Positions 5,186 to 34,675 of a DNA stretch of 64,000 nt are shown one piece after another. The translations under genes and the position numbers were made by a program. Under the pieces are notes generated by a model. That model did not search any database. It saw only the letters and a program-made list of their open reading frames with translations, and was not told the DNA's origin. Within the stretch, counting starts at the first letter, position 1, and the number at the start of each line of letters is the position of its first letter. Source of the stretch: a virus (lineage: Duplodnaviria > Caudoviricetes); the IMG/VR virus record IMGVR_UViG_3300028888_000069, positions 1 to 64,000 of that record; one strand, written 5' to 3'.

Positions 5186-5543
5186 AATAGGGAATTTAGA
5201 ATTTAGAAAGGCTACTTATTTATGTGAGGAGCCTGAACACCCCTCTTATCATATAGACTATTGGTATCCTAATGCAGATTATGGAACTGAAAAAGAATAT
5301 AATATAGATGAAACAGGAGAATGGTATTATAAAGAGGACTTCTCTTGTAGAAAACATAAATCTTGTTTTAAATATCCAGAATCCTGTTTCGCTATAGCAT
5401 CATTCGATTATGATAAGCATGAAGATTTCTATGAATTGCATTTTATAGGAGATAGACCTAAATGTCTCAGTGAAAAAGAAAAAGAAATATTTTGGGAATT
5501 GTTTTTATATGGTAATGAAGCATTAAATAATTCATATGAATAA
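5175..5543 (+). CDS. Hypothetical protein
   Basis: 122-aa ORF with overlapping coupling. Confidence 0.75.
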   Translation: MENRIGNLEFRKATYLCEEPEHPSYHIDYWYPNADYGTEKEYNIDETGEWYYKEDFSCRKHKSCFKYPESCFAIASFDYDKHEDFYELHFIGDRPKCLSEKEKEIFWELFLYGNEALNNSYE

Positions 5544-6971: not shown

Positions 6972-7226
6972 ATGAAAACAAACGAAGCACCAGAAAAGAT
7001 TTATTTATATCCAAGTGATAGAACAGGTGGAGGATATGAGGATGAATGGGGTGATATACCTTGGGGTGATAGTGTTGAATATGTTCGCACTGATGCCTTT
7101 ATTGAAAAGGTTTGTGAATTTTTGAAATCTTATCGTCAAGATACCATTGATGGAACTGGTTATATTGCAGGTATTGTTAACGATAAAACTATTGAAGATT
7201 TAAAAAACTATATGAAAGGAGAATAA
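6972..7226 (+). CDS. Array protein (APEKIY...EYVRTDAFIEKVCEFL)
   Basis: Shares its C-terminal module with 6442. Confidence 0.75.
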   Translation: MKTNEAPEKIYLYPSDRTGGGYEDEWGDIPWGDSVEYVRTDAFIEKVCEFLKSYRQDTIDGTGYIAGIVNDKTIEDLKNYMKGE

Positions 7227-7677: not shown

Positions 7678-8022
7678 ATGAATAAGACTTGTACAAATAT
7701 TAAACAGAGTAAGAAGTTGACAGAGATACTGCCACTTTCAAGTGCTGATATGTTTTGGTACAGAGATGCGGTAACAACAGAGGCGAATCCCCGAATAATG
7801 AATTATATGCAAATACCAGAACTACAAAGTATGTACTATTCTCCTTGTTGGAGTCTTGCAGCATTGCTCAGAGAATTGCCTGATACAATGCTTGGCAAAG
7901 ATAAAGATGGGTATGTTGTGATGGTGGAAACAATGGGGAGCGGGCTAACAACATTTGCATCGAACCCTATAGATGCTTGTTATGAGATGATTGTTAAATT
8001 ACATGAACAAAAAAATGAATAA
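7678..8022 (+). CDS. Array protein, EQSKKL/PCWSL/DACYEM family
   Basis: Paralog of 11793, 12953 and 16960. Confidence 0.8.
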   Translation: MNKTCTNIKQSKKLTEILPLSSADMFWYRDAVTTEANPRIMNYMQIPELQSMYYSPCWSLAALLRELPDTMLGKDKDGYVVMVETMGSGLTTFASNPIDACYEMIVKLHEQKNE

Positions 8023-8786: not shown

Positions 8787-9155
8787 ATGAATAAAATTTG
8801 TACATCAAAAGAACAATCTAAGAAACTCATAGAGTTAGGTATAGAACAGCCTAAGAAACTCATAGAGTTAGGGATTGATGACAATACTATGGATTTAAAA
8901 TATGACATAGCAGATTGTGCAGCCTATATATGGCAATTGGAGAATGATATTATATGTACAGACAACAAGTCACTTAAGCCATTCTGTGCTGATATGGCAA
9001 TGAAGAGAATCTTTCTGTATGACCTTTGTCCGTTTGGGTTCGGTAAAGATTATAGAGAACGCACATTACAAGAACTTGAAGAACATATCAACAACGGAAG
9101 ATGTACAGAGTTTTCCAAAGTAAATTATGAAAAACTGAAAAAGAAGAAATTATGA
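8787..9155 (+). CDS. Chimeric array protein with duplicated EQxKKLIELGI
   Basis: 33-bp-period tandem duplication at 8811-8873. Confidence 0.65.
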   Translation: MNKICTSKEQSKKLIELGIEQPKKLIELGIDDNTMDLKYDIADCAAYIWQLENDIICTDNKSLKPFCADMAMKRIFLYDLCPFGFGKDYRERTLQELEEHINNGRCTEFSKVNYEKLKKKKL

Positions 9156-9504
9156 CTTATTCAAGGAACTTGATGATAAAAGATATGGTGGCTTCACAAC
9201 TGCACTTGACAAAGGAGGTTATCTTACACTGATAAAAGAAGGATACAAGGACTTTTCAATCTTCATACATGAGTTATTTCATGTAGCCAATCTCATCTTG
9301 TTTGATAGGGAGGTAGAGTATAGCAGAACTTTTGAACCACTTGCTTATTTATTGGGGTGGATAGCACAGCAGTATGCTGATTATGTTCTTTGGAAGCCAA
9401 ATAAAGACCAATTGATAGCATTACAAGCAGCAAATAGTGGATGCAGTTATGATACTTCTATACTTACATCGTTATTGGATGACCTTAAAGCTATAACCAT
9501 ATGA
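9139..9504 (+). pseudogene. Startless or frameshifted zincin-like (HELFH...E) coding segment
   Basis: The frame of ORF 9298 is open from 9139: DLFKELDDKRYGGFTT...IFIHELFHVANLIL...FEPLAYLLGW, with no ATG upstream of the motif. Confidence 0.55.
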
Positions 9505-9773: not shown

Positions 9774-10283
9774 ATGAAAGATTACGAAAAACTTTACAAA
9801 GAAGCTCTTGATAGAGCAAGAGCCTTAAATGAAGGCAGAACCACTGGTGCATTTGGTGAAACAGTATGTGAATTTATTTTCCCTGAACTCAAAAAATCAG
9901 AAGATGAAAAGATAAAAAATGAAATTAAAGCGGTTCTTGCAAATACTGATTTATCACAATTTGTATTAAATTATACTTTTCATGATATGGTTGAATGGCT
10001 TAATAAGCAAGGAGAATACGCTAATTTTAGAAATAAAATACAAATAGACGATGAAGTTACAAGAAATAAAGACGGTGCTCTTGTTAATTTGTCTCAACTG
10101 AAAAGAACTGCCAAGAAAGATGAGCAGAAGCCCACTTGGAACGAGGAAGATGAAAGAAATCTTGATGGGATAATAGCTGAGATTAAGGCAAATAAAAATA
10201 ATGCCCCAGATTATGATCTTGCGACTTATGATAGCTTTCTTTCTTGGCTCAAATCTCTCAAAAACAAAGTAATGGAGAAATAA
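9774..10283 (+). CDS. Array protein, YE..YK.AL.RA/FPELK family
   Basis: Paralog of 12194, 13342, 15708 and 17932. Confidence 0.8.
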   Translation: MKDYEKLYKEALDRARALNEGRTTGAFGETVCEFIFPELKKSEDEKIKNEIKAVLANTDLSQFVLNYTFHDMVEWLNKQGEYANFRNKIQIDDEVTRNKDGALVNLSQLKRTAKKDEQKPTWNEEDERNLDGIIAEIKANKNNAPDYDLATYDSFLSWLKSLKNKVMEK

Positions 10284-10434
10284 TTATGGAATTATACATT
10301 TGGTTTTTACATATATTATTAGCAGCCATTTCAGTTATAGCAGCATTGCATGGGAAGTATGATGATGCAACCTATTTGCTGGTGTTGTCCGTATGGATAC
10401 ATCAATATCTTAAAGATAATTAAAGGGATAAGTT

Positions 10435-10818
10435 ATGATTGAAGAAAGATACTGCTCTCGTGAGTTAAGCAAACTATTAAAAGAAAAAGGTTTTGATGAA
10501 CCTTGTCTATGTGCTTGGCTGCTGGGTGATGATATGACTTATAGATTTCAAAGTTCTATTTATCATAATTGTTTAGAAGATAATGAATATCTTTGTCCTA
10601 CTCATCAAATGGCTTGTGACTGGTTAAGGGATAAAGGCTATCATATTGAGATATTTACCAATGCAAGTGGCTATAGGTTTATCATAAGTAAGATACCGCC
10701 CAATGGCACAGACTTGGTATGTGATGATATTGAAGGCAATAATGATGGCGGTGCTTGGGATAATTATGGTGAATGTATAGAAGATGCTATTAAGTATTGT
10801 TTAATGAAAATAATTTGA
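10435..10818 (+). CDS. Phage hypothetical protein (ELSKLLKEKGFDEPC...PTHQMA..WLR)
   Basis: 127-aa ORF. Confidence 0.8.
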   Translation: MIEERYCSRELSKLLKEKGFDEPCLCAWLLGDDMTYRFQSSIYHNCLEDNEYLCPTHQMACDWLRDKGYHIEIFTNASGYRFIISKIPPNGTDLVCDDIEGNNDGGAWDNYGECIEDAIKYCLMKII

Positions 10819-10820
10819 TT

Positions 10821-11018
10821 ATGAATACTGAATACGAAAACATTATCAAACAAGTAGTTAGTGCTACTTTTTGTAATAGACTTACTGAAGAAGAAGCTTG
10901 TGAAATACTTTGTAGTCTGTATAGAATTGCATCTTCGCAGAATGTATGTATATATCCAAATACTCCTCAACTTCTCCAACAATATTATACTAATACATTT
11001 AAACATAAAAATGATTGA
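10821..11018 (+). CDS. Hypothetical protein
   Basis: Start moved to attATG 10821. Confidence 0.55.
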   Translation: MNTEYENIIKQVVSATFCNRLTEEEACEILCSLYRIASSQNVCIYPNTPQLLQQYYTNTFKHKND

Positions 11019-11021
11019 ATT

Positions 11022-11561
11022 ATGACACCAGAAGAGAAAGAATTATTGAAAGATCTCAGTGCAAGGCAAATTTATAGGGTAAAAATACTATGTGAAGGAT
11101 GGGATAGTGACCATGGCTGTGAATTTAATACTGTTGAAGAACTTGTTGGAATAGATGATAGATTTATCTACACTTTATGGAGAGGTGAAAGAGATAAGCA
11201 TAGTATTCAAGAACCTTGTAGTATTATAGATTATAAACCTTATCTCCGTTCAATGTCTTCAATGACAGAAGAAGAAATTGATGAATTTACACAATTTGAT
11301 GTATATGCTGATGGTGAATATGTAATACCTAATTATAAGGCAATTGATTGGCTTAACAAGAATATGTTTGATTATCGAGGACTTATTCCTAAAGGTCTTG
11401 CAATTGAAGTTAATGAGAGTAATAATCCTTATAAAATTAAAGTTATGAAAGGTTACACAGATATAGAACAATCTAAAAAGTTGGCAAGGCCTGTTTATAC
11501 TTGTGATATTTGTCCACATAAAGGCAATCTTATGTGTTGTCATAATTGCCCTAATTACTAA
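11022..11561 (+). CDS. Fused array protein (MTPEEKELL module + EQSKKL start + Cys-rich tail)
   Basis: PYKIKVMKGYTDIEQSKKLA junction lacks the stop seen at the equivalent position of 7230. Confidence 0.75.
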   Translation: MTPEEKELLKDLSARQIYRVKILCEGWDSDHGCEFNTVEELVGIDDRFIYTLWRGERDKHSIQEPCSIIDYKPYLRSMSSMTEEEIDEFTQFDVYADGEYVIPNYKAIDWLNKNMFDYRGLIPKGLAIEVNESNNPYKIKVMKGYTDIEQSKKLARPVYTCDICPHKGNLMCCHNCPNY

Positions 11562-11574
11562 AAACATTAAAATT

Positions 11575-11796
11575 ATGAGGCAAAAAGATAAAAAATCAAA
11601 ACATTTATTCAAAATATCATGGTGTTTTCATAACTATATTCCTGAGAAAAAGATATATAAGAATTATACAATAAGCAATGATGACTTTGGATAAATTATG
11701 ACAAGTCAATTTACTATATTTAAATGTACTAAATGTGGAAAAATTAAGAAAAAATTAACAAAGGTATTTAAAAGTTCAGAAAAGAATTTGTTATGA
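11575..11796 (+). pseudogene. Small Zn-binding protein split by an in-frame TAA
   Basis: WCFHNY...DDFG*IMTSQFTIFKCTKCGK in the same frame across TAA 11692-11694. Confidence 0.5.
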
Positions 11797-12191
11797 ATAA
11801 GATTTGTACAAATGTAGAACAATCCAAGAAACTAATGGAACTTGGATTAAATACATATACCGCGGATATGTGTTGGCTTCGTTATAAGGTTAATGATAAA
11901 TGGAAAGAAGAATGCACAGTGATTGACGGAACTCTTGATGAAGATGATGTATATGCATGGAGTCTTTCCGCTTTGCTTGAGTTAATGCCCCCGTATTTAT
12001 TTAAATTTGAAAGAGGAATTGATTTAAATATTTATCCTGACCTTAATGGTAAAGGATGGCATTGTAGTTATATGGCAAATTGTATTGAGAATATGAAAAC
12101 AGATAAGTTTAAATTGGTAACAAGTGGAGATAGTCTTGTTGATGCTTGCTATGAAATGATTATTAAACTAAAAAAAGTAAACTTATTATAA
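11793..12191 (+). CDS. Array protein, EQSKKL family
   Basis: MNKICTNVEQSKKL...WSLSALL...DACYEMIIKL. Confidence 0.8.
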   Translation: MNKICTNVEQSKKLMELGLNTYTADMCWLRYKVNDKWKEECTVIDGTLDEDDVYAWSLSALLELMPPYLFKFERGIDLNIYPDLNGKGWHCSYMANCIENMKTDKFKLVTSGDSLVDACYEMIIKLKKVNLL

Positions 12192-12193
12192 TT

Positions 12194-12949
12194 ATGGACT
12201 ACGAACAACTTTACAAAGATGCTCTTAAAAGAGCAAGAAAATATAAAGAGAAGGGATATATGATGATTAATGCTGTTCTTGATAATATATTTCCAGAACT
12301 CAAAGAACCAGAGGATGAATTAACGTGGTTAACAAAGTATATTGAAGAAGAAGCGTATAACCTTTCTATTGATATTCGTGATGATGAAGACCGTATAAAA
12401 CTCAAGAAATTGCAAAAGGCATTTGTTTGGCTTGAAAAACAAGCATCAAAAACAAAGTGGAGTGAGGAAGATGATTATAATGTTCAATGTTATATTGCCA
12501 AGGCTGAAAGAGATATTGCAAATGGTTGTCATGGAAGAAACAAAGAACTAATTGAATGGCTCAAATCCCTCAAAGACAGAGTACAACTACAGTCACATCC
12601 TACTGAATGGAATGAAGATGATGAGAGGATAAGGAAAGGACTTATTGAAAATTTTAAATGGTTTTGTGGCGATTTTTATGAAACAACTAAATGGGGTAAA
12701 GATGATGATATGCTTGTTAGAGATATAATCACTTGGCTTGAAAAGCAAGGTAAACGTATTGCTGATTGTCCTCAAAATCATCAAGACAGTAGTAGACCAA
12801 ATGGAGCCATTGTGTTAGAAGATTTTAATGGTGGAGAAGGTCATTATAAAGTTCACCTTGATTATCTTAATAAGGAGCAAGTAGAAGAAATTGAGAATAT
12901 TGTTGATGGATGGAATAAGATTGAACCAAGGTTCAAGGTTGGTGATTGA
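12194..12949 (+). CDS. Array protein, multi-module FPELK family
   Basis: Contains FPELKEPED, WLEKQ x2, WSEED, WLKSLK; ends EPRFKVGD-TGA. Confidence 0.8.
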   Translation: MDYEQLYKDALKRARKYKEKGYMMINAVLDNIFPELKEPEDELTWLTKYIEEEAYNLSIDIRDDEDRIKLKKLQKAFVWLEKQASKTKWSEEDDYNVQCYIAKAERDIANGCHGRNKELIEWLKSLKDRVQLQSHPTEWNEDDERIRKGLIENFKWFCGDFYETTKWGKDDDMLVRDIITWLEKQGKRIADCPQNHQDSSRPNGAIVLEDFNGGEGHYKVHLDYLNKEQVEEIENIVDGWNKIEPRFKVGD

Positions 12950-12952
12950 ATT

Positions 12953-13339
12953 ATGAAAAGTTATACAGATATAGAACAATCCCAAAAGTTGGCAGAGATA
13001 CTGCCAATTGAAAGTGCTGATATGTATTATTATAATAGAACTGATATTAAGTATCAAGGTGCTTTACCTATTGAATATAAGCATGGAAATCCTTTGCTGT
13101 CACAAGAAATTCCTTGTTGGAGTCTTGCGGTATTGCTTGATATATTACCAAATAATGACCACATTAGTACAACTATATCAAGAGGTGGATGGACAATAGG
13201 GCCTACAAAATATGTTAATACATGGTGGTGCGAATATGAGGATGAAGAAAATGATAAAGTAATTACAACATCAGCAGACAATCCAATTGATGCTTGCTAT
13301 GAAATGATTGTTAAACTTAAAGAACTAAAACTATTGTAA
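12953..13339 (+). CDS. Array protein, EQSKKL family
   Basis: MKSYTDIEQSQKLAEILPIESADM...PCWSL...DACYEMIVKL. Confidence 0.8.
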   Translation: MKSYTDIEQSQKLAEILPIESADMYYYNRTDIKYQGALPIEYKHGNPLLSQEIPCWSLAVLLDILPNNDHISTTISRGGWTIGPTKYVNTWWCEYEDEENDKVITTSADNPIDACYEMIVKLKELKLL

Positions 13340-13341
13340 TT

Positions 13342-13722
13342 ATGGACTACGAAGAACAATATAGAGAAGCTCTTGATAGAGCAAAGAGATTGTATGAGAA
13401 AGGTACAATCACTGAAAGTATTGGTTATATCTTTCCAGAACTTAAAGAATCGGAAGATGAGAAATTCAGGAACAACTGTATTCATTTTCTTGAATTACAG
13501 AAATCACATCATGCAAGTACGATTGAAATTGACAAGTGTATTAATTGGCTTGAAACTCTTAATGAAAATCGATTTGTATATGTTGTTACCCGTTGTGAGG
13601 AACATTCCGATTATGTGGAAGCGGTTTTTCTTAATAAAGAAAAGGCCGAGGCTTATTGTGAGCAATTTAATAAAAATGAAGAATGTTATCGTCGCCATAT
13701 AACTAAAGCAAAAATTGATTAA
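13342..13722 (+). CDS. Array protein, FPELK family
   Basis: MDYEEQYREALDRA...IFPELKESEDE. Confidence 0.8.
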   Translation: MDYEEQYREALDRAKRLYEKGTITESIGYIFPELKESEDEKFRNNCIHFLELQKSHHASTIEIDKCINWLETLNENRFVYVVTRCEEHSDYVEAVFLNKEKAEAYCEQFNKNEECYRRHITKAKID

Positions 13723-13739
13723 CAAAAATTATTGTAATT

Positions 13740-14003
13740 ATGGAAATAATTGGAATTATATTACTTATTGCAATAAATATTATATTGACTTATATTTTCA
13801 AATTTATTACTGGCAGTTGGGCTTCTGCACTTTTTAGTTCAGCAATGATACTAATAGTTGTAATGTTATCAATGGCATCACTTGCAAAAAATAAATATTA
13901 TAAAGAAGGAGTTAAAGAATATCTTCAACATCCTGAAAGATATAGTATTAAAGTTATATATGAAGATAGTATTCCTGTAGATACTATTGTTGAACTTAAA
14001 TAA
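13740..14003 (+). CDS. Two-TM membrane protein
   Basis: Two hydrophobic helices; C-terminal EDSIPVDTI. Confidence 0.7.
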   Translation: MEIIGIILLIAINIILTYIFKFITGSWASALFSSAMILIVVMLSMASLAKNKYYKEGVKEYLQHPERYSIKVIYEDSIPVDTIVELK

Positions 14004-14013
14004 CTAAATAATT

Positions 14014-14505
14014 ATGGAACAAAAACAAGTAAAAATTGTGCCACCTGAAGGCTATGAGGTGGATAAAGAAAATAGCACTTTTGAGTGCATTAAATTTAAG
14101 CCTATTACCTCTAAAAGGTGGAGAGATGGCAATCCTGTTGTAAAAGGATGGTATGCTGCAGGTAATATAGTAAAGTCTTTTAATCTGAGTGGGACAAACC
14201 CATTAAAATGGAAAGATGATAATTTTGATGTGTTTGCCACTGAAAAACAAGCCAAATCATCACTTGCTATGGCTCAAATTAGTCAGATAATGACTAATGA
14301 CGAGAGATTTGGCGGTGCTATTACTGATGAAGAGTGGGATAATACAGACATTATGAAGTATGGAATACAACGAGTAAATAATAGAATAGATTACTCTTAT
14401 TTTAATCAGACTTACTATTTTCTTTCTTTTCATACACAAGAACAAAGAGAGTTGTTTCTTAAAGAAAATGAAGATTTGGTAAAAGCTTATTTAATGCTTG
14501 ATTAA
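14014..14505 (+). CDS. Phage hypothetical protein (PEGYEVDKENSTFECIKFKP)
   Basis: 163-aa ORF. Confidence 0.8.
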   Translation: MEQKQVKIVPPEGYEVDKENSTFECIKFKPITSKRWRDGNPVVKGWYAAGNIVKSFNLSGTNPLKWKDDNFDVFATEKQAKSSLAMAQISQIMTNDERFGGAITDEEWDNTDIMKYGIQRVNNRIDYSYFNQTYYFLSFHTQEQRELFLKENEDLVKAYLMLD

Positions 14506-14507
14506 TT

Positions 14508-14750
14508 ATGACAAAAGAAGATTATATGTATCTGCCTAAAGAAAGATTGGCAGAATTATTAGCAGCAAGGGATGAAATAGAAGAAGGGAACATACGTTTA
14601 ATCCCTACAAGTCAAGTTACACTCCCTTGTTATGCTCCTGATGGTATTTGTACTAATCCTCAAAGGGATTGTATAAATTGTCCAAAGACTTTTTTTGGTA
14701 ATGGGAATACAACTACTACAACAACTATTAATTCATGTACGAAAAATTAA
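14508..14750 (+). CDS. Small Cys-rich protein
   Basis: PCYAPDGICTNPQRDCINCP. Confidence 0.7.
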   Translation: MTKEDYMYLPKERLAELLAARDEIEEGNIRLIPTSQVTLPCYAPDGICTNPQRDCINCPKTFFGNGNTTTTTTINSCTKN

Positions 14751-15040
14751 GAACTAATAAAGATGGCGTTCCAAAGGATTTTCGTAAATCTTTTGAAAAG
14801 GCTCTTGCAGAGGCTTGGAAAGATTATAATAACAGTGGAGCATGGTTGGTTGACGCCTTCGAGGATAATGAAATGGAACTTGCTTTTGCTAAGGGATTTT
14901 TAGAGGGTTGTATTAATACTGAAAAGAAAGTCATTGACAAAGTATGTAAATTTACTAAAGCCAATGTAAGAGAATATCATAAAAGTGGTGTTTTTCATGT
15001 TGGTGAGTTTATAACAGATTTAAAAAGTAAGATATTATGA
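14735..15040 (+). CDS. Array protein, IDKVC family
   Basis: VIDKVCKF..FITDLK. Confidence 0.7.
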   Translation: MYEKLRTNKDGVPKDFRKSFEKALAEAWKDYNNSGAWLVDAFEDNEMELAFAKGFLEGCINTEKKVIDKVCKFTKANVREYHKSGVFHVGEFITDLKSKIL

Positions 15041-15711
15041 GCTATGAACAAAAATATGAACTTATAGAAAGTGATTTACCGAATCTGTATCGCATAAAAG
15101 CATTAAAAAATTTCAATGATGTAAGAAAAGGTAATATAGGCGGTTATGTGGAAAACGAAAACAACCTTGCACAAGAGGGTAATTGTTGGATTTATGATAA
15201 TGCACAAGTTCGTGATGATGCAAGAGTTTATGGCAATGCACAAGTTTATGATAATGCACGAGTTTGTAATAATGCAGAAATTTATGATAATGCAGAAGTT
15301 TATGGCGATGCGTGGGTTTATGAAAAGGCACAAATTTATGGAAACGCATGGGTTTTTGAAAAGGCACAAGTTTGTACTAATGCACGAATCTATGATAATG
15401 CATTAGTTCATGGTAATACAATAGTTTTAGGCAGTGCACGAGTTTATGGCGAGGTAGAAATTTTTGGTAACGCATGGATTTGTAATGATGCAGAAGTTAA
15501 AACTGACGAAGATTATATTGTTTTCAAAAATTGGTGGAGTAGTGGCAGGTATTTTACATGGACAAGAAGTAATGATAAATGGATAGTTGGATGTTTCTTT
15601 GGAAGTGGTCAAGAATTAATCAAAAAAGCTTATGCCGATTCTGAAAAAAGTGGCCGAGAATATGAGAGAATAGTTAGATATGTTGAAGAGATTAAAAATA
15701 GTGAATTATGA
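15037..15711 (+). CDS. Hexapeptide-repeat (left-handed beta-helix-like) protein
   Basis: LYRIKALKNF.DV.KG.IGGYVE.E.NL followed by about 17 imperfect xxYxNA hexapeptides (18-bp period). Confidence 0.9.
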   Translation: MSYEQKYELIESDLPNLYRIKALKNFNDVRKGNIGGYVENENNLAQEGNCWIYDNAQVRDDARVYGNAQVYDNARVCNNAEIYDNAEVYGDAWVYEKAQIYGNAWVFEKAQVCTNARIYDNALVHGNTIVLGSARVYGEVEIFGNAWICNDAEVKTDEDYIVFKNWWSSGRYFTWTRSNDKWIVGCFFGSGQELIKKAYADSEKSGREYERIVRYVEEIKNSEL

Positions 15712-16586
15712 ATTACGAAGAAAAATACAAAACGGCTCTTGAAAGAGCAAAGAAAGAATTGCTATCATGTGGTTCTACTGATTGTGATGCAGCAAAACAA
15801 ATCTATAGATTTTTCCCAGAATTAAAAGAATCAGATGATGGGAGGATAAGGAATCAAATTATTGACTTTATTGAAAAATATGGAAATCCTACTTATTATG
15901 AATGGCAAAAAGATTGGATTGCATGGCTTGAAAAGCAAGTTATATCACAAGAGAGAACTGGTATTGAATGGCTAAATGCAATAGATGATGCTTGCGATAA
16001 ACGGTATTCAGAAGAATATGCCGAAGGTGAATACTGTCATGAACAATCCTTCAAATGGGGATTTCAAGAGGGTGTAGAATGGCTTGAAAGACAAGGTGAA
16101 CAAAAGCCTAAATTTAGAATTGGTGATGTAATCAAGGAAAAAAGTACAGGTGATATTGTTACTATTAGCGAGGTAGACTTAAAGAATAGGGAATATAGGT
16201 TAAGTAATACAGGTTTTATTCCGTTCAAATATGAGTATTTATGGGAATTAGCAGAGCAAAATACTGTTGATAAGCCTGAGCAAAATTTCCATAAAGGTGA
16301 GGGTGAGAGGATAAGGAAAGGTATTATTCGCAACCTTGAATATTTAATGGATAAATCAGAAGGGTTTGTTAAAGATGAACTCAGTGAAAGAATTGCTTGG
16401 CTTGAAAGACAAGGTGAGCAAAAGTCTGCTAAGAACATTGTTGAAACATGGAAAGATATGCGTTTAGAGGTATATCAGCAGGCAAGTGGTAACAGACATG
16501 AGCCTAATTATTCTGATGATACTACAAAAATGTTTTCTCTTAATGATATTGATGAAATAATTGAAAAACTAATAATGAATAAATGA
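15708..16586 (+). CDS. Array protein, multi-module FPELK family
   Basis: WLE(K/R)Q x3, with near-identical DNA at 16080 and 16398. Confidence 0.8.
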   Translation: MNYEEKYKTALERAKKELLSCGSTDCDAAKQIYRFFPELKESDDGRIRNQIIDFIEKYGNPTYYEWQKDWIAWLEKQVISQERTGIEWLNAIDDACDKRYSEEYAEGEYCHEQSFKWGFQEGVEWLERQGEQKPKFRIGDVIKEKSTGDIVTISEVDLKNREYRLSNTGFIPFKYEYLWELAEQNTVDKPEQNFHKGEGERIRKGIIRNLEYLMDKSEGFVKDELSERIAWLERQGEQKSAKNIVETWKDMRLEVYQQASGNRHEPNYSDDTTKMFSLNDIDEIIEKLIMNK

Positions 16587-16759
16587 AAAAGTTTATTATA
16601 TTAATATTACCATTTATTATTCTATTACTCATCCTCTTATTAATAACTTCTGGAATAGAGGGATTGATAGTATTTTTATCACTCATTGCATTTTTTGCCT
16701 TAGTTGGTTTCCTATTTTCTTGGTGGATTAAATTTGTAGATAAACATATAAAAGATTGA
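16583..16759 (+). CDS. Small two-TM membrane protein (58 aa)
   Basis: MKKFIILILPFIILLLILLLITSGIEGLIVFLSLIAFF...; missed by the ORF track. Confidence 0.6.
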   Translation: MKKFIILILPFIILLLILLLITSGIEGLIVFLSLIAFFALVGFLFSWWIKFVDKHIKD

Positions 16760-16762
16760 ATT

Positions 16763-16963
16763 ATGAAACTGATAGACAAATCTGAAGTAGTTACGAGAAT
16801 AAAAAGATTAAGAGAAAGAGCATTTGACCTATATGGTTATTCTCAATTTGATACGGCATATTATAATGTTCTTAAAATAATTGATTCTCTTGAAATGAAA
16901 GAGATAGACTTGGAGGAAGAATTTGGTAGGAAATATTCACACAAGAAAGGAGGTGAGGGATGA
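16763..16963 (+). CDS. Array protein (MKLIDKSEVV)
   Basis: Related short remnant at 6663-6731. Confidence 0.65.
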   Translation: MKLIDKSEVVTRIKRLRERAFDLYGYSQFDTAYYNVLKIIDSLEMKEIDLEEEFGRKYSHKKGGEG

Positions 16964-17346
16964 AAAGTTATACTGATATAGAGCAATCCAAAGAGTTAGC
17001 AAAGATACTGCCTATTGAAACTGCGGATATGGGATGGAATGTCTTTGTTGACAACTCGACAAGATGCTTACCTATTTACGATTGGGACTTGACTAAAAAT
17101 GGTGAAGGAAGTGTTGAGTTTATTCCTTGTTGGAGTCTTGCAGCATTGCTTGAATTATTGCCTAAATATATTGAAAAAGATGGACAACTAACTTTTCTTG
17201 ACATATATGCAACACATAATTATGGTTGGGTTATTGAATATTCAAATAATATAGAAGATTTTGTTGAATATAGTTTTAATGGTCACATTCTGATAGATGT
17301 ATGTTACGAAATGATTGTTAACCTTAAAGAACAAAAACTATTGTAA
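16960..17346 (+). CDS. Array protein, EQSKKL family
   Basis: MKSYTDIEQSKELAKILPIETADM...PCWSLAALL...CYEMIVNL. Confidence 0.8.
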   Translation: MKSYTDIEQSKELAKILPIETADMGWNVFVDNSTRCLPIYDWDLTKNGEGSVEFIPCWSLAALLELLPKYIEKDGQLTFLDIYATHNYGWVIEYSNNIEDFVEYSFNGHILIDVCYEMIVNLKEQKLL

Positions 17347-17348
17347 TT

Positions 17349-17546
17349 ATGTGGGTTAAAGTAGATTATTCAATAGAAGCCAAGAAAAATTCTCGTCCTA
17401 ACATGGCAGGAATGTGGGCTATTTATACAAAGGCACATTGGTGGGATAAGTGGGTTGAAAGACAAACTTATGCTGATGTAAATTGGGCAACAAAGGATGC
17501 TCAGAAATTGGTGGAATATCCAAAGTATTATTATAAATGGAAATAA
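17349..17546 (+). CDS. Small Trp-rich protein
   Basis: 65-aa ORF; WWDKWV motif resembles the next gene. Confidence 0.65.
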   Translation: MWVKVDYSIEAKKNSRPNMAGMWAIYTKAHWWDKWVERQTYADVNWATKDAQKLVEYPKYYYKWK

Positions 17547-17548
17547 TT

Positions 17549-17731
17549 ATGGCAAAGTATAGAATAGTTCACAAATATCCATGTTATGCAAATAGTGGCT
17601 GTATTCCTCATGACGGCTACTTTGTTCAGAAACTTGAAAAAGGGTTCTTTACTGACAAATGGGTTGACATTAAAGGATTTGGAGACAAGGAAAGAGCAGA
17701 AGAATTATTGAAAATATTAAAAGGGAAGTAA
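17549..17731 (+). CDS. Small hypothetical protein
   Basis: MAKYRIV...FFTDKWVD. Confidence 0.65.
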   Translation: MAKYRIVHKYPCYANSGCIPHDGYFVQKLEKGFFTDKWVDIKGFGDKERAEELLKILKGK

Positions 17732-17743
17732 TAACAACATAAG

Positions 17744-17920
17744 ATGGTAACAAGTATTGAAGAAAATCTCCCGCATAAAGTTTCTGAGGTTATATGTATT
17801 GACTGTAAGTATCGTTGGGTTGCAGTAAGACCTACTGCCACTCTACTCAAAGAACTTGAATGTCCTCAATGTAGACAACAAGGATATGTAATTGAAACTG
17901 GTGAAATTATAAATGATTAA
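17744..17920 (+). CDS. Zn-ribbon protein (58 aa)
   Basis: CIDC...CPQC; missed by the ORF track. Confidence 0.65.
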   Translation: MVTSIEENLPHKVSEVICIDCKYRWVAVRPTATLLKELECPQCRQQGYVIETGEIIND

Positions 17921-17931
17921 GTTAAAATATT

Positions 17932-19347
17932 ATGGAATCATACGAGAAGAAATACAAAAATGCTCTTGAATGGGCAAGACAAGTAATGAGCGGAAAAATA
18001 GGATTTATACGGAAAGATGTAGAAGAGGTATTCCCCGAACTTAAAGAGTCAGATGATGAAAAGATAAGGAAAGAAATCATTTCCGCACTTAAGTTTGCTA
18101 ATCATAAAGGTGTATATGATAAACATATTGCTTGGCTTGAAAAGCAAGGTGAAACTTTTACCAAAAGTGATGTTGCTGCTGCTTATTTTAAAGGTATAAG
18201 TAACGCTAAAAAAGAAATGGAAAAGCAATATGAAGCAAACTATCAAATAAGAAAAGATATTGCAACTTTCATTTTTAACTATAGGGGTGATATTAAAGAT
18301 AGGGCTAAATGGATGGACTATCTTGGTATTACGCTTTCCCTTGTTGAAAAGCAAGGTGAGAAGCCACAGTGTAAATCTGCACTTGAGACAATACAAGAGA
18401 AAGAAGTTGACAATAGTAATAAGGTTGAACCAAAGTTTAAGGTTAAATATGCTGGTAATGAGTATAATGTGATTGAGGAAAAAGACATTGATGGTGTAAC
18501 ATTCTATGGAATAGAAGATGAGCCAAATCACATTGACTATGTCAAAGCAGATAGTTGTGAAATAATTAATGCTGAACCAAAATTTAAGGTTGGTGATTGG
18601 ATTACTCTTTATGGTGGTAAGCCATTTAAAATAGTAAAAATTGAGCCAGAAAGATATGGAGTTTTAGATTATCTTTTATTAGATCAAAATGGACATGATT
18701 CTTACTATAATAAGAAATATATTGATAAAAATGCAAGATTGTGTACTCAAGAGGATTTTGCATCAAAGGTTGAACCAAAGTTTCATGAAGGAGATTGGAT
18801 TGTTGGAGCAAATAATATATGTAAAATAATTTCATTAAATGATGATTTAAATTGTTACATAGCGCTTACTATTAACAATGAAGAAATAAAAATACCTTAT
18901 TATTTTGACGATGAACAAGGTCATATGTGTTCTTATCACCTTTGGTCAATAAATGACGCAAAGGATGGCGATGTGCTTGTAACCGCTCATGACAAACCAT
19001 TTATTTATAATGGAATTCATAACCGTTTTTATATAGGTTCTTATTGTGGCATATCAGCAGGATATAGGTTTAATGTTGCAAGTGGTTGGGTAGTAAACGT
19101 AAATATTCATCCTGCCACTAAAGAACAGCGTGATACTTTGATGAAAGCAATGGCTGATGCTGGATATACCTTTGGCTTTGAAAAGAAAGAACTAAAGAAG
19201 ATTAAGCATAATCCTGCATGGAGTGAAGAGAATGAATGTTATATGACAGAGTGTATAAATGCTATTGCTACAAAGAATAGTTGGTCATTTGAAGAGAAAA
19301 GAAAAACAAAGCATTGGCTAAAGTCTCTAAAAGAAAGAATTATTTAA
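17932..19347 (+). CDS. Largest multi-module array protein
   Basis: FPELKESDDE, WLEKQGE, EPKF x3, WSINDAKDGDVL, HPATKEQRD, WSEEN and WLKSLK modules. Confidence 0.85.
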   Translation: MESYEKKYKNALEWARQVMSGKIGFIRKDVEEVFPELKESDDEKIRKEIISALKFANHKGVYDKHIAWLEKQGETFTKSDVAAAYFKGISNAKKEMEKQYEANYQIRKDIATFIFNYRGDIKDRAKWMDYLGITLSLVEKQGEKPQCKSALETIQEKEVDNSNKVEPKFKVKYAGNEYNVIEEKDIDGVTFYGIEDEPNHIDYVKADSCEIINAEPKFKVGDWITLYGGKPFKIVKIEPERYGVLDYLLLDQNGHDSYYNKKYIDKNARLCTQEDFASKVEPKFHEGDWIVGANNICKIISLNDDLNCYIALTINNEEIKIPYYFDDEQGHMCSYHLWSINDAKDGDVLVTAHDKPFIYNGIHNRFYIGSYCGISAGYRFNVASGWVVNVNIHPATKEQRDTLMKAMADAGYTFGFEKKELKKIKHNPAWSEENECYMTECINAIATKNSWSFEEKRKTKHWLKSLKERII

Positions 19348-29126: not shown

Positions 29127-29825
29127 ATGAGTTCAATAATAGGATTAGGTGGCTTTTCTAATTCTGGAAAATCTACCTCACTAAAATATTTAAACCCAAA
29201 AGAAACATTCATTATTTCTTGTACCAATAAACAATTACAAATTCCGGGCTTTAGAAAGAAATATCCTAAAGTAGAAATAAAAGAAGGAAAGTTACTTGGT
29301 AATTGGTATGTAAGTAATTCTTATACTTCGATAGAGAAAATAATGGATGCCGTTTCTAGAACAAGACCTGAAATAAAAGTTATAGTAGTAGATGATGCTA
29401 ATTATTTATTAAGTAATGAAACTTTCCAAACTGCTCTTCAAAAAGGCTATGAAAAGTTTTCAGTAATGGCTAAGAACTATTATGATTTAATTGAGTCTTG
29501 TCTTAATTATAGAGATGATTTATCTATTGTATTTATTTCTCATTTGGAAAATTGGGGAACAGACATTGACCCTAAATATAGGCTTTGGACTACAGGTAAA
29601 ATGTTAACTACTCAAGTCAATCTTGATGGATTGTTCTCTTATTTGCTTTATGCAGAAAAATATGAAGACGAAGAATCTGGAGACATCAAATTTAGATTTA
29701 GAACGAAGCCTGGATTGGAAGATACTTGTAGAACCGTATCTGGGTGTTTCGAAGATAAATATATTGAACCAAATATGAAATTGGTTATAGATACTATTAA
29801 TAAATTTGAAAATGGTGATGAATGA
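29127..29825 (+). CDS. AAA_24/Sak4-like P-loop ATPase
   Basis: GFSNSGKSTS, VIVVDD, ISH. Confidence 0.85.
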   Translation: MSSIIGLGGFSNSGKSTSLKYLNPKETFIISCTNKQLQIPGFRKKYPKVEIKEGKLLGNWYVSNSYTSIEKIMDAVSRTRPEIKVIVVDDANYLLSNETFQTALQKGYEKFSVMAKNYYDLIESCLNYRDDLSIVFISHLENWGTDIDPKYRLWTTGKMLTTQVNLDGLFSYLLYAEKYEDEESGDIKFRFRTKPGLEDTCRTVSGCFEDKYIEPNMKLVIDTINKFENGDE

Positions 29826-33240: not shown

Positions 33241-33642
33241 ATGAAAAAATTAGAAGTTAAAATAATTAGAGAATACATTGACGTAGATATTAAAGAAGTG
33301 GCGGAAGAAATTCTAGACTATTTTAGTGAAGTTCAAGTAGATCCTCCTACCAGGATAGATATTGAAAAATACTTGAATGAAAATGATTTTCAGGTTACTA
33401 AGGATGATATAACAAGGATATACGACGAAATTCAATTTAAAAGGAATGAATTAAAAAATAAATTCTTTGAATTCGTTAAAGACAGTATAAAAGACCATGT
33501 AAATGATACTTTAGATAATTTGATGGATATAATAGAACTAGAATATGCTATAGATATAAATGATATTCCTTTTGACGAAAAAGAAGTAAAAGAACTTATT
33601 AAAACTTATATAAAAGAATATTTAAATGAAAATAGAGTATGA
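33241..33642 (+). CDS. Acidic hypothetical protein
   Basis: 133-aa ORF. Confidence 0.7.
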   Translation: MKKLEVKIIREYIDVDIKEVAEEILDYFSEVQVDPPTRIDIEKYLNENDFQVTKDDITRIYDEIQFKRNELKNKFFEFVKDSIKDHVNDTLDNLMDIIELEYAIDINDIPFDEKEVKELIKTYIKEYLNENRV

Positions 33643-34675
33643 TTTTAGCAAAATTAAAATAACTCCACTTTTAGAAACTTTAAAGTTAGAAAGTATAGAT
33701 GACTCTGTCTATTTCAGTGAAAAATATTCTAATTATATTTCTAATTCTAGACTTGGTTTGTTATTGAAATATGGTGCCAAAGAGTTCTTTGAAGGGCTTG
33801 GAGCAAATAAGGAATTTAGTTCTAGTCTTTCTTTAGGAAGCGCTCTCCATCAATTAGTTCTTCAGCCAGATTCCTATCATTTGGTAGAATCTGTAAACAG
33901 ACCAACAGCTAAGGCTGGATTAATGGCAGATTATCTTTATAATCCTTCTGGAATTACTCCTTCTGATGAACAAATAATCGAAGCAAGTGATGCAGTAGGA
34001 TATTATAAAGGAAAGATGTCAGAAAAGAAAATAAAAGATCTTAGGGAGAAATGTAATGAATATTGGAGAAGTAGGGCAATATACGAAAAAGGTAAAGAAC
34101 CTTCTGAAAAAGAAGATATTTTCATAGATGAGAAATCTAAAAATACTATAAGGTTATGTCTAGAAGAAATAAATAATAATAAAAATTTCCAAACTTTATT
34201 ACATCCAGAAGGGTTATTAGAAAAACCTATTTCTGAGAATGAAAAAGCAATTCTTTTGGATATAATGGTAACAATGCCTGAAAGTAAAGAACCTATAATC
34301 TATAAATTAAAAAGCAAATTAGATAACTTTACAATAGATAAAGAGTCTAATGTTATTACTGTTAATGATTTAAAAACTACTTCAAAAATCCTTCCAGAAT
34401 TTCCTGGAGTTATTGATTTCTTTCATTATGACAGAGAAATAGCTATGTATTCATATCTATTAAAATTATGTGCTGAAAAATTCTATGGATTAAAAGACTG
34501 CACTACAAAAGGCAATTTCTTAGTTGTAGAAACAATACCAAAATATTATACACAGGTATTTCCTATGACAAAAGAGTTATATAAAAGAGGTTTACACGAA
34601 TTTCTATATCTTTTAAAATGTGTAGCATATTTTAATGTTATAGAAGGTTTTAAATTTGCAGACACAAATGTATAA
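33626..34675 (+). CDS. PD-(D/E)xK exonuclease (RecE/ExoVIII-like)
   Basis: ISNSRL, GSALHQLVL, KSKLD, VNDLKTT, HYDREIAMY. Confidence 0.85.
   Translation: MKIEYDFSKIKITPLLETLKLESIDDSVYFSEKYSNYISNSRLGLLLKYGAKEFFEGLGANKEFSSSLSLGSALHQLVLQPDSYHLVESVNRPTAKAGLMADYLYNPSGITPSDEQIIEASDAVGYYKGKMSEKKIKDLREKCNEYWRSRAIYEKGKEPSEKEDIFIDEKSKNTIRLCLEEINNNKNFQTLLHPEGLLEKPISENEKAILLDIMVTMPESKEPIIYKLKSKLDNFTIDKESNVITVNDLKTTSKILPEFPGVIDFFHYDREIAMYSYLLKLCAEKFYGLKDCTTKGNFLVVETIPKYYTQVFPMTKELYKRGLHEFLYLLKCVAYFNVIEGFKFADTNV

What the first reader, a model, noticed from the sequence alone, without database searches (positions are those of the whole stretch)
9774..19347. Combinatorial protein family built from fixed linkers and swappable modules
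Seen: five genes (9774, 12194, 13342, 15708, 17932; 126-471 aa) follow one grammar. They start YE..Y..AL..A then FPELK.S/P.D, and continue with unrelated inserts separated by WLE(K/R)QGE, EPKF..GD, W(S/N)EE(D/N) and WLKSLK. The linkers are conserved at DNA level (e.g. TGGCTTGAAAGACAAGGTGARCAAAAG at 16080 and 16398). Gene 12194 stops exactly in a linker (GGTGATTGA versus GGTGATTGG). Inference: 20-30 bp in-frame homologies serve as recombination joints that shuffle small domains, a recombination-based diversity generator needing no dedicated integrase. The phage encodes a Sak4-like ATPase and RecE-like exonuclease that could drive this. Function unknown; anti-defence or host takeover is plausible.
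Basis: partly seen in the sequence, partly recalled or inferred. Interest (0 to 1): 0.75.

Follow-up and report, generated by a model that had tools for sequence, protein, structure and literature searches.

The report
Shuffled modular protein family in rumen phages
Five neighbouring genes of a sheep-rumen phage belong to a very large, unnamed family of phage proteins built from small interchangeable pieces, which have been swapped between unrelated phages at short junction sequences conserved down to codon choice; what the proteins do is still unknown.

Summary

- **The "linkers" are structural.** In an AlphaFold model they are the conserved caps of small folded units: helical hairpins and SH3/Tudor-like barrels.
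- **The family is very large and unnamed.** There are 17,006 clusters at 50% identity with E<=1e-3 and no Pfam family. It occurs in rumen phages and Prevotella prophages.
- **Architectures vary.** All 233 non-identical members examined have different architectures.
- **Junction blocks are conserved at codon level.** The same-codon fraction is 0.63-0.77 against 0.45-0.47 expected. Replication genes from the same loci sit at expectation.
- **Segments are shared between unrelated phages.** DNA segments 85-95% identical occur in phages that are otherwise 1-10% alignable, mostly at different positions. 80% of their ends lie within 6 nt of a block, against 39% by chance.

This is evolutionary, between-phage shuffling at short in-frame homologies. 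It is not shown to be a generator working inside this phage. The five paralogs share at most 20 exact bases, blocks are no more alike within a genome than between genomes, and the read data were inconclusive.

Function is unknown. First-stage notes of this scan describe similar fields in another genome.

The parts
9774..10283 (+). Family member 1 (169 aa): N-terminal four-helix domain, a short beta module, and a C-terminal WSEED...WLKSLK helical hairpin.
   Evidence: ORF; alignment; junction blocks mapped. Positions 10136-10274 are 86% identical in DNA to a segment of a gene in unrelated locus L069.
12194..12949 (+). Family member 2 (251 aa): N domain, three helical hairpins and one further module. 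It ends in a truncated EPKF..GD junction, with TGA at 12947-12949 in place of the Trp codon.
   Evidence: (family D17). The next gene (second family) starts at 12953, so this is a rearrangement joint lying exactly in a block.
13342..13722 (+). Family member 3 (126 aa): N domain plus a small alpha/beta module, with a weak match to DUF7336.
15708..16586 (+). Family member 4 (292 aa): N domain, a helical module, an SH3-like module, a second ERIRK...WLERQGEQ hairpin and a C-terminal module. It contains the 30-nt internal repeat at 16080-16109 and 16398-16427.
   Evidence: (family D18). Positions 16441-16568 are 85% identical in DNA to L013.
17932..19347 (+). Family member 5 (471 aa). The units by residue are: N domain 1-74; helical hairpin 78-130; disordered linker 135-163; beta modules 169-205 and 215-271; two-barrel domain with helix and hairpin 281-425; WSEE...WLKSLK hairpin 432-470.
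   Evidence: AlphaFold2 model, mean pLDDT 76.7. Foldseek matches tandem KOW, Tudor and SH3-like domains. Positions 18766-18979 are 86% identical in DNA to unrelated locus L008.
18031..18081 (+). Junction block A (FPELKES.DEKIRKEII). It covers the loop and the start of helix 3 of the N domain and is the most widely shared DNA island.
   Evidence: 30 or more other phage loci have short DNA matches here. Codon-level conservation is shown.
18127..18153 (+). Junction block B (IAWLEKQGE), the C-terminal end of the last helix of the N domain. Further copies lie at 12428-12442, 12731-12754, 15915-15938, 16080-16100, 16392-16430 and 18346-18363.
   Evidence: (families D9, D15). The same-codon fraction is 0.77 against 0.45 expected.
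18766..18804 (+). EPKF..GDW junction, which is the N-cap and first strand of an SH3-like barrel. Further copies lie at 12917-12946, 16092-16115, 18418-18444 and 18574-18603.
   Evidence: (families D17, D19).
18934..18981 (+). HLW..DAKDGDVL junction between barrel 1 and barrel 2, inside the large beta domain.
   Evidence: Many of the shared segments start or stop here.
19105..19230 (+). PATKEQ, AGY, KELKKI and WSEE junctions, covering the helix, the hairpin and the start of the C-terminal helical unit.
19315..19338 (+). WLKSLK junction, the end of the C-terminal hairpin. Further copies lie at 10245-10262 and 12557-12586.
   Evidence: (family D13).
11793..13339 (+). A tandem two-gene cassette. 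A second-family gene at 11793-12191 is followed by member 2, and another at 12953-13339 by member 3. Further second-family copies lie at 7678-8022, 8787-9155 and 16960-17346.
   Evidence: Families D2 and D7. An HMM finds 89 second-family genes in 50 of 80 loci, all on the same strand as the family-1 gene (where the locus has one), mostly upstream of it and often separated by 3 nt.
9298..9504 (+). Stand-alone ORF that carries only the WKP...DLK module, which forms the C-terminal module of many family members.
   Evidence: Translation compared with columns 1700-1875 of alignment A3.
29127..29825 (+). Sak4-like single-strand annealing ATPase. This is a candidate recombination enzyme; no link to the family has been shown.
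   Evidence: phrog_2872, E 1.4e-41. The Pfam AAA_24 match is only E 4.4e-4.
33626..34675 (+). Exonuclease VIII (RecE)-like protein. This is a candidate recombination enzyme; no link to the family has been shown.
   Evidence: phrog_412, E 2.5e-16.

Best explanation
**What the genes are.** The five genes are members of a very large, unnamed family of non-structural phage proteins. The family lies in the early, replication-side region of rumen phages that probably infect Prevotella. Each protein has a conserved N-terminal four-helix domain. This is followed by a variable string of small structural units: helix-loop-helix hairpins, SH3/Tudor-like barrels, and a helix-plus-hairpin unit.

**How the units are built.** The two ends of every unit are conserved sequence blocks of about 15-50 nt. 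The middles are highly diverse.

**How the diversity arose (inferred).** Recombination between family genes of different phages and prophages in the same hosts, with crossovers in or next to the blocks, has repeatedly exchanged, inserted and deleted units in frame. The result is a common pool of modules spread over many phage lineages. The blocks stay alike at synonymous sites because they are shared by all members and keep being exchanged or converted. The unit interiors persist as old, distinct variants under purifying selection.

**What is shown.**
- The modular anatomy.
- The codon-level conservation of the blocks.
- Similar DNA segments in otherwise unrelated phages.
- Discrete segment ends that coincide with the blocks.
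- Family genes whose base composition does not follow that of the resident genome.

**What is inferred.**
- That homology in the blocks guides the crossovers, rather than selection merely filtering the products.
- That phage annealing and exonuclease enzymes take part.

**Function.** It is unknown. My best guess, at about 35-40%, is that these are early-expressed binding proteins used in host takeover or counter-defence.
For: **Anatomy**
- AlphaFold2 places WLEKQ at the end of helix 63-72.
- FPELK sits in a loop before helix 41-55.
- EPKF lies just before the first strand of each barrel.
- DAKDGDVL lies between the barrels, and PATKEQ at the start of helix 397-409.
- WSEE and WLKSLK are the start and end of hairpin 432-470.
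- The only disordered stretch is 135-163.
- The fold matches tandem KOW, Tudor and SH3-like domains.

**Size and range**
- More than 4,731 hits among 8,000 scored candidates.
- 17,006 clusters at 50% identity with E<=1e-3, and 11,633 with E<=1e-10, for the N domain alone. In nearly all of the 150 best hits the domain sits at the N-terminus.
- 205 relatives in IMG/VR contigs of 9-673 kb.
- Rumen MAGs and the isolate Prevotella sp. tc2-28 carry members.

**Mosaicism**
- 233 architectures among 233 proteins, and 1,750 inter-block segments in 942 sequence families.

**DNA-level block conservation**
- WLEKQ is written TGG CTT GAA AAG CAA, with Leu CTT in 89% against 39% background and Lys AAG in 79% against 37%.
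- Leu CTC is used in 84-90% of FPELK and WLKSLK copies, against 11% background.
- The effect is confined to two blocks of the N domain. A Tyr that is 97% conserved shows none.
- The same-codon fraction at identical residues is 0.63 and 0.77 in the two blocks, against 0.47 and 0.45 expected. Other columns give 0.53 against 0.48.
- Conserved columns of the SF2 helicase, the DnaB-like helicase and two other gene families from the same loci sit at expectation.

**Exchange between phages**
- 320 directional DNA matches of at least 100 nt and 85% identity join genes of different loci. Of these, 69% lie more than 60 nt apart in the two genes.
- Most of the locus pairs checked align over only 1-10% of their 20 kb.
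- 80% of the match ends lie within 6 nt of a conserved 4-residue block, against 39% for random placement.
- 83% coincide with the same kind of end in a match to another locus, against 14%.
- L072 and L053 have flanks 91-96% identical, yet their family genes differ by module gains and replacements at the blocks.

**Selection and composition**
- Shared segments have dN/dS of 0.15 and dS of 0.48.
- GC3 of family genes stays at about 0.19-0.27 outside blocks and 0.31-0.39 in blocks. GC3 of resident ORFs ranges from 0.18 to 0.59.

**Context**
- Neighbouring genes encode helicases, methylases, RecT, the sliding clamp and nucleotide-metabolism enzymes.
- The five genes have no in-frame TAG, whereas the - strand late genes have 16-30 each.
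Against: - **No recombination event was observed directly.** Only assembled contigs of the runs were available. The many "joints" have sides under 30-40 nt and most likely come from other family members in the sample.
- **A first breakpoint test was weak.** With blocks defined by the depth of short DNA matches, enrichment was 32% against 25%. The strong result depends on blocks defined from residue 4-mers taken from the same gene set.
- **BLAST extension bias.** Extension through a conserved block biases match ends toward block edges by an amount I did not simulate.
- **The abutting-segments test was uninformative** (6.5% against 43%). In this small sample most genes have only one segment with a close relative.
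- **The exchanges are not very recent.** Shared segments have dS of about 0.5.
- **The homology on offer is short.** Exact identity is at most 20 nt within this phage and has a median of 17 nt between phages. From my own knowledge, this is at or below the minimal efficient homology known for bacterial and lambda Red recombination.
- **Homology guidance cannot be separated from selection here.** Selection that keeps only in-frame joints at unit boundaries would give the same pattern.
- **Function has no direct evidence.** There are no Pfam, PHROG, PADLOC or PDB sequence matches.
Confidence: 0.7

Rival explanations
1. This is an active generator inside the phage. During each infection the Sak4-like and exonuclease VIII-like enzymes recombine the five paralogs at their 20-30 bp joints at an appreciable rate. 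A phage population would then carry many rearranged variants, which is the reader's diversity generator in the strict sense.
For: - Both recombination genes are present.
- No site-specific recombinase or reverse transcriptase was found, so none is needed.
- One gene ends exactly in a joint.
- A tandem two-gene cassette is present.
- One 30-nt joint is repeated within gene 15708.
Against: - The paralogs of this phage share at most 20 exact bases.
- Blocks of paralogs in one genome are no more alike than blocks from different genomes (same-codon 0.643 against 0.673). There is therefore no sign of conversion within a genome.
- All joints are direct repeats, so recombination between them would delete the genes in between.
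- Contig-level data show no variant that can be assigned to this phage.
Confidence: 0.1
2. Selection acts as the only filter. Crossovers are mechanistically random (illegitimate recombination or template switching), but only in-frame products joined at the boundaries of structural units fold and survive. The codon similarity of the blocks reflects recent spread of the family rather than any role of homology.
For: - The blocks coincide with the ends of secondary-structure units.
- Segments are under purifying selection (dN/dS 0.15).
- Family genes are not adapted to the base composition of the genome they sit in, which is consistent with recent arrival.
- The exact homology available is short.
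Against: - Synonymous sites are conserved specifically in the blocks. They are not conserved at an equally conserved Tyr, nor at identical residues elsewhere in the same domain.
- Recent spread alone would raise codon identity everywhere.
- The shared segments already have dS of about 0.5, while the blocks remain alike.
Confidence: 0.15
3. These are ordinary repeat-domain paralogs. Tandem duplication and divergence produced proteins with a fixed domain order, and the motifs are conserved only because the protein needs them.
For: - The motifs are structural caps.
- Tandem gene duplication is visible in the window.
Against: - Every one of 233 proteins has a different architecture.
- The same segment lies at different positions in different genes.
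- DNA islands 85-95% identical occur in otherwise unrelated phages.
- Codon-level conservation is absent from the control genes.
Confidence: 0.04
4. The mosaic is an assembly artefact. Metagenome assemblers jump between family members at the repeated blocks and so create false mosaics.
For: The unitigs of the public runs break at the blocks, for example at 12562-12584 and 18123-18152. The blocks therefore do confuse assembly graphs.
Against: - Shared segments are 85-95% identical rather than 100%, with a coherent dN/dS of 0.15.
- They join contigs from different samples.
- Exact repeats of 30 nt or more occur in only 3% of gene pairs.
- An isolate genome carries a member next to a second-family gene.
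Confidence: 0.03

Closest known systems
gp38 adhesins of T-even phages, in which conserved glycine-rich motifs alternate with hypervariable segments (Trojet et al. 2011, PMC3157838, citing Tetart et al. 1996 and 1998)
   Same: Conserved motifs alternate with hypervariable segments. [quoted passage not shown] The motifs also form the structural core.
   Different: gp38 is a single-copy tail-fibre tip protein with four segments in a fixed order. Here the proteins are multi-copy and non-structural, and lie in the early region. Whole small folded units vary in number and order, and exchange crosses phage lineages that differ in GC content and size. There is no sequence or fold relation to gp38.
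Domain mosaicism of phage proteins in general (Smug et al. 2023, PMC10684548)
   Same: Fragments are shared between otherwise unrelated phage proteins. That study describes ongoing shuffling, which it interprets as an arms-race signature.
   Different: [quoted passage not shown] It does not describe this family, sub-domain units, or junctions conserved at codon level.
Polymorphic toxin, CDI and Rhs systems (Zhang et al. 2012, PMC3482391)
   Same: A conserved N-terminal part is followed by highly diverse C-terminal cassettes. These are exchanged by recombination with stand-alone cassettes at a conserved junction motif (abstract, plus my own knowledge).
   Different: No toxin or immunity domain is recognisable here. 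There are many junctions per protein rather than one. The genes are phage early genes, and the partner (second-family) gene lies upstream.
Botstein's modular theory of phage evolution, and mobile regulatory cassettes in T4-type hyperplastic regions (Arbiol et al. 2010, listed in PMC3157838)
   Same: Short conserved sequences at module borders act as recombination joints in hyperplastic regions of early genes (own knowledge; the reference was seen).
   Different: Those joints lie between genes and are regulatory. Here they are in frame, inside genes, and encode structural caps.
Diversity-generating retroelements and shufflons
   Same: Both produce protein diversity in phage or plasmid genes.
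   Different: No reverse transcriptase, tyrosine recombinase or serine recombinase was found in the held 69% of the genome. The variation here includes insertions, deletions and non-homologous segments. All blocks are direct repeats, not inverted ones.

Membership tests
Mosaic gene family diversified by recombination at conserved motifs (T-even gp38 type) | Conserved motifs alternate with hypervariable segments. | tested here: met
   Block map; DNA-island profile; 942 segment families between conserved blocks.
Mosaic gene family diversified by recombination at conserved motifs (T-even gp38 type) | Exchange end points lie in or near the conserved motifs. | tested here: met
   80% against 39% within 6 nt, and 83% against 14% for coinciding ends. 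An earlier block definition gave only 32% against 25%.
Mosaic gene family diversified by recombination at conserved motifs (T-even gp38 type) | Recombinants arise in crosses or co-infections (experimentally observed exchange). | not testable with these tools
   Only assembled contigs of the public runs were available.
T-even gp38 adhesin family itself | Receptor-binding protein at the tail-fibre tip, homologous to gp38. | tested here: not met
   There is no Pfam or PHROG match. The genes lie in the early, replication-side region. The fold is helical hairpins plus SH3-like barrels.
Diversity-generating retroelement target | A reverse transcriptase and a template repeat lie nearby, and variation is limited to adenine-templated substitutions. 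| tested here: not met
   RVT_1 is absent from the held record, which is 69% complete. The variable parts differ by insertions, deletions and unrelated sequence.
Shufflon or invertible-segment system | A site-specific recombinase together with inverted repeat sites. | tested here: not met
   Phage_integrase and Resolvase are absent from the held record. All block copies are on the + strand in direct orientation.
Polymorphic toxin system | A C-terminal toxin domain with a cognate immunity gene downstream. | tested here: inconclusive
   No known toxin or immunity family matched. Unknown domains cannot be excluded.
SH3 / Tudor / KOW-like beta-barrel fold (modules 169-425 of gene 17932) | Small five-stranded barrels arranged in tandem. 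| tested here: met
   Foldseek matches Spt5 KOW repeats, the SETDB1 tandem Tudor domain and the KIN17 tandem SH3-like domain, with E from 2e-7 to 1e-3. TM-scores are low because the query has many domains. This is a fold resemblance only; no function follows from it.
Any curated protein family (Pfam, PHROGs, PADLOC) | A match above the curated threshold. | tested here: not met
   Some relatives carry an extra WDGH (PF25311) or DUF4250 module.

The most novel reading that the evidence does not exclude
The junction blocks are kept alike at DNA level because they work as in-frame recombination joints. On this reading the family is an evolved combinatorial library, shared by many rumen phages, of small binding modules on a constant N-terminal domain. 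Phage annealing and exonuclease enzymes reshuffle it during co-infection at measurable rates, and it serves to keep pace with host defences.
Probability: 0.15. Interest if true: 0.85.

Novelty: new variant of a known kind. Interest (0 to 1): 0.62.

Why it matters
If the reading holds, this is one of the largest and cleanest natural examples of protein evolution by exchange of sub-domain units. Its junctions can be recognised from DNA alone, and its module pool is shared by phages of very different size and base composition.

It offers a concrete system for testing three things:
- Whether short in-frame homologies guide recombination in phages.
- How much homology phage annealing proteins need.
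- Whether such gene fields are counter-defence arsenals.

It also flags a family of more than 10,000 sequence clusters that no database names. Finally, it warns that its repeated blocks break metagenome assemblies.

Tried and rejected
- **Family libraries.** Pfam, PHROGs and PADLOC scans of the five proteins and their neighbours gave no family.
- **PDB sequence search.** A profile search against PDB sequences found nothing below E 0.1.
- **ESM Atlas.** A look-up of the N domain returned only unnamed viral clusters.
- **Close relatives.** Megablast of the region against 50,697 phage records gave no match. A single-protein search of IMG/VR found no close relative.
- **First breakpoint test.** Blocks defined by the depth of short DNA matches gave weak enrichment (26% against 19% exactly in a block, 32% against 25% within 6 nt). 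That definition misses most blocks; for example, none was called in the second half of gene 9774.
- **Coincident-ends test.** One version excluded HSPs with the same interval and so was mis-specified. It was replaced.
- **Abutting-segments test.** It was uninformative.
- **Concerted evolution within a genome.** Tested and not found.
- **Read-level search for rearranged variants.** Only Logan contigs were served. The 103 joints and several hundred loose ends have short sides at the blocks, so I read them as other family members in the same sheep samples. Presence in two metatranscriptome runs does not prove transcription.
- **Second-family protein.** The model is good (pLDDT 88.6), but the only fold matches are weak dsRBD-like ones (Foldseek E about 0.1; VIA Z 5-7, which is within the noise stated by the tool).
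- **BFVD.** The search returned only uncharacterised phage proteins with tandem barrels.

Full report
**Setting**

The window is the first 64 kb of a 125,412-bp IMG/VR virus record. CheckV estimates it as 69% complete. GC is about 29%.

The DNA is found in sheep gut metagenome runs. Long - strand genes at 53.8-63.6 kb need TAG read as a residue 16-30 times each. The + strand genes, including the five studied here, need it not at all or once.

Downstream of the finding lies a replication and recombination block:
- SF2 helicase
- DnaB-like helicase
- Sak4-like annealing protein
- primase
- exonuclease VIII-like protein
- NrdD
- ligase
- family A polymerase

**The observation**

The five ORFs exist as described. 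They share an N-terminal region with invariant Y, E, Y, A, L, A, then FPELK..D, then WL. In a six-frame scan of the whole record, FPELK, the EPKF..GD motif, WLKSLK and the N-terminal start motif occur only in these genes. The looser WLEKQ-like and WSEED-like patterns also gave a handful of matches elsewhere.

The quoted DNA repeat (16080 and 16398) and the stop codon inside a junction (12947) are both real (families D18 and D17). No Pfam, PHROG or PADLOC family matches.

**Anatomy**

An AlphaFold2 model of the 471-aa member was built on 30 homologues, with mean pLDDT 76.7. It shows the following units:

| Residues | Unit |
|---|---|
| 2-72 | four-helix N domain |
| 78-130 | helical hairpin |
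| 135-163 | the only disordered stretch |
| 169-205, 215-271 | two small beta modules |
| 281-425 | two barrels, then a helix and a beta hairpin |
| 432-470 | helical hairpin |

- FPELK lies in the loop before helix 3.
- WLEKQ is the end of helix 4.
- EPKF lies just before the first strand of each barrel.
- WSEE is the first turn, and WLKSLK the last turn, of the C-terminal hairpin.

These are HLW..DAKDGDVL and PATKEQ.

The S.DE..IR...WLEKQ half of the N domain and the WSEED...WLKSLK unit are versions of one helix-loop-helix unit, with conserved ends and a variable middle.

Foldseek matches tandem KOW, Tudor and SH3-like domains. This says nothing about function.

**Family size and range**

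- The 471-aa protein has more than 4,731 significant relatives among the 8,000 candidates scored. They are 281-800 aa long and cover 13-100% of the query.
- A profile of the N domain alone finds 17,006 clusters at 50% identity with E<=1e-3, and 11,633 with E<=1e-10. In nearly all of the 150 best hits the domain is at the N-terminus.
- IMG/VR holds 205 relatives. I fetched 79 loci from contigs of 9-673 kb.
- Among species-representative genomes, the family appears in 14 loci. All that name a source are rumen or ruminant MAGs, mostly Prevotella, Prevotellaceae or Bacteroidales. One is the isolate Prevotella sp. tc2-28.
- Up to seven members lie within 20 kb.

**Combinatorial architecture**

I cut 233 non-identical members at conserved 4-residue words. 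This gave 1,750 inter-block segments in 942 sequence families. No two proteins have the same architecture. Recurrent segments have almost as many different neighbours as they have copies.

**DNA-level conservation of the junctions**

Across 120 family genes from 75 loci, the blocks keep particular codons. These are often codons that are rare in the same genes:

| Motif and residue | Codon | Observed | Background |
|---|---|---|---|
| WLEKQ, Leu | CTT | 89% | 39% |
| WLEKQ, Lys | AAG | 79% | 37% |
| FPELK, Leu | CTC | 90% | 11% |
| WLKSLK, first Leu | CTC | 84% | 11% |
| PATKEQ, Thr | ACC | 79% | 15% |

The choice is specific to the position, with GAA at one Glu and GAG at the next. It is therefore not a general preference for optimal codons.

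Within the N domain the effect is confined to two blocks. A Tyr that is 97% conserved shows none.

The table gives same-codon fractions for pairs of genes from different loci with the same residue:

| Columns | Observed | Expected |
|---|---|---|
| Block A | 0.63 | 0.47 |
| Block B | 0.77 | 0.45 |
| Other columns | 0.53 | 0.48 |

Conserved columns of the SF2 helicase, the DnaB-like helicase and two other families from the same loci sit at expectation. Several small neighbouring families show the effect too.

**Exchange between phages**

An all-against-all BLASTN of the 120 genes gave 27,950 local matches, with a median of 43 nt at 86% identity. These are islands centred on the blocks.

There are 320 directional matches of at least 100 nt and 85% identity between genes of different loci. 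Of these, 69% lie more than 60 nt apart in the two genes.

Most of the locus pairs checked align over only 1-10% of their 20 kb. The shared segments are therefore islands in unrelated DNA.

The listed ends fall at these motifs:
- FPELKES.DEKIR
- WLEKQGE
- EPKF
- DAKDGDVL
- PATKEQ
- KELKKI
- WSEED
- WLKSLK
- WKPS

The breakpoint statistics are:
- With blocks defined from the data (4-residue words present in at least 12 of 75 loci, covering 25% of positions), 80% of internal ends lie within 6 nt of a block, against 39% for random placement. Within 12 nt the figures are 90% against 47%.
- 83% of ends coincide with the same kind of end in a match to another locus, against 14%.
- A first test with a cruder block definition gave only 32% against 25%.
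- I did not simulate the bias from BLAST extension.

One pair of close relatives, L072 and L053, has flanks 91-96% identical over kilobases. Their family genes differ by module insertions and replacements whose edges are the blocks.

**Selection and composition**

Shared segments have dN/dS of 0.15 and dS of 0.48. The modules are therefore functional, and the exchanges are not very recent.

GC3 of family genes is nearly constant, at 0.19-0.27 outside blocks and 0.31-0.39 inside. GC3 of other long ORFs in the same loci runs from 0.18 to 0.59. The genes do not take on the composition of the genome they sit in, as expected for a pool that moves between phages.

**What is not supported**

- Blocks of paralogs in one genome are no more alike than blocks from different genomes.
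- The five paralogs of this phage share at most 20 exact bases.
- Public runs are served only as contigs. These break at the blocks and show many short-sided "joints" that most likely belong to other family members.
- I found no reverse transcriptase, tyrosine recombinase or serine recombinase in the held part of the genome.

The evidence therefore supports shuffling over evolutionary time between phages. It does not support a generator working inside this phage.

**Surroundings**

A second small family (128 aa) accompanies the first in 50 of 80 loci. It is always on the same strand as the family-1 gene, mostly upstream of it, and often separated by 3 nt.

ORF clustering shows at least five small families that travel together. 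Neighbouring larger genes are replication, recombination, methylation and nucleotide-metabolism genes, not virion genes. First-stage notes of this scan describe similar "mix-and-match" fields in another genome. I did not examine those.

**Comparison with what is known**

[quoted passage not shown] It also fits the general domain mosaicism of phage proteins (PMC10684548).

The following appear not to have been described. Three literature searches found nothing on this family:
- the family itself
- units smaller than a domain
- variable number and order of units
- multi-copy genes in the early region
- codon-level conservation of the junctions
- spread over phages of very different composition

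**Verdict**

An active generator is not shown, and the function is unknown.

Noticed in passing
window 7678-8022, 8787-9155, 11793-12191, 12953-13339, 16960-17346: A second paralog family of about 128 aa has conserved ends and variable middles. It accompanies the first family in 50 of 80 phage loci, always on the same strand as the family-1 gene and mostly just upstream of it. The AlphaFold model is good (pLDDT 88.6). Its C-terminal half resembles a dsRBD-like alpha-beta3-alpha arrangement only weakly (Z 5-7).
   Followed up: partly
window 11445-11516 (inside ORF 11022-11561): The conserved first block of the second family sits in frame inside the C-terminal part of a gene of a third family. 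It looks like another fusion joint at a conserved gene end.
   Followed up: no
window 6972-7226, 10435-10818, 11022-11561; loci L005-L083: At least five small gene families travel together as an accessory field in diverse rumen phages: 124, 84, 74, 44 and 41 copies in 80 sources, namely 79 fetched loci plus this genome. Two of them, here called fam5 and fam6, also show codon-level conservation in their conserved columns (0.71 against 0.48, and 0.70 against 0.53).
   Followed up: partly
loci L005-L083: Family genes keep an AT-rich third-codon composition (GC3 about 0.25) even in phages whose other genes have GC3 near 0.59. There they stand out as AT-rich islands.
   Followed up: partly
window 15037-15711: This gene encodes a beta-solenoid protein (YdcK-type and hexapeptide repeats) and is built from 15 in-register copies with an 18-nt period (repeat family D1).
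   Followed up: no
window 5536-6255: A glycoside hydrolase family 16 domain is encoded in the early region of the phage.
   Followed up: no
window 12562-12584 and 18123-18152: Unitigs of the public sheep runs end or overlap exactly at junction blocks. These shared blocks therefore fragment assembly graphs and could seed chimeric contigs.
   Followed up: no
L086 (ONIZ01000001.1, 410,106 bp), L089/L094 (CADBGE010000001.1, 400,076 bp): Single-contig "MAGs" labelled Firmicutes or Erysipelotrichaceae carry several family members at about 29% GC. One has the same length as an IMG/VR virus record (410,106 bp). They are probably large phage genomes filed as bacterial bins.
   Followed up: no
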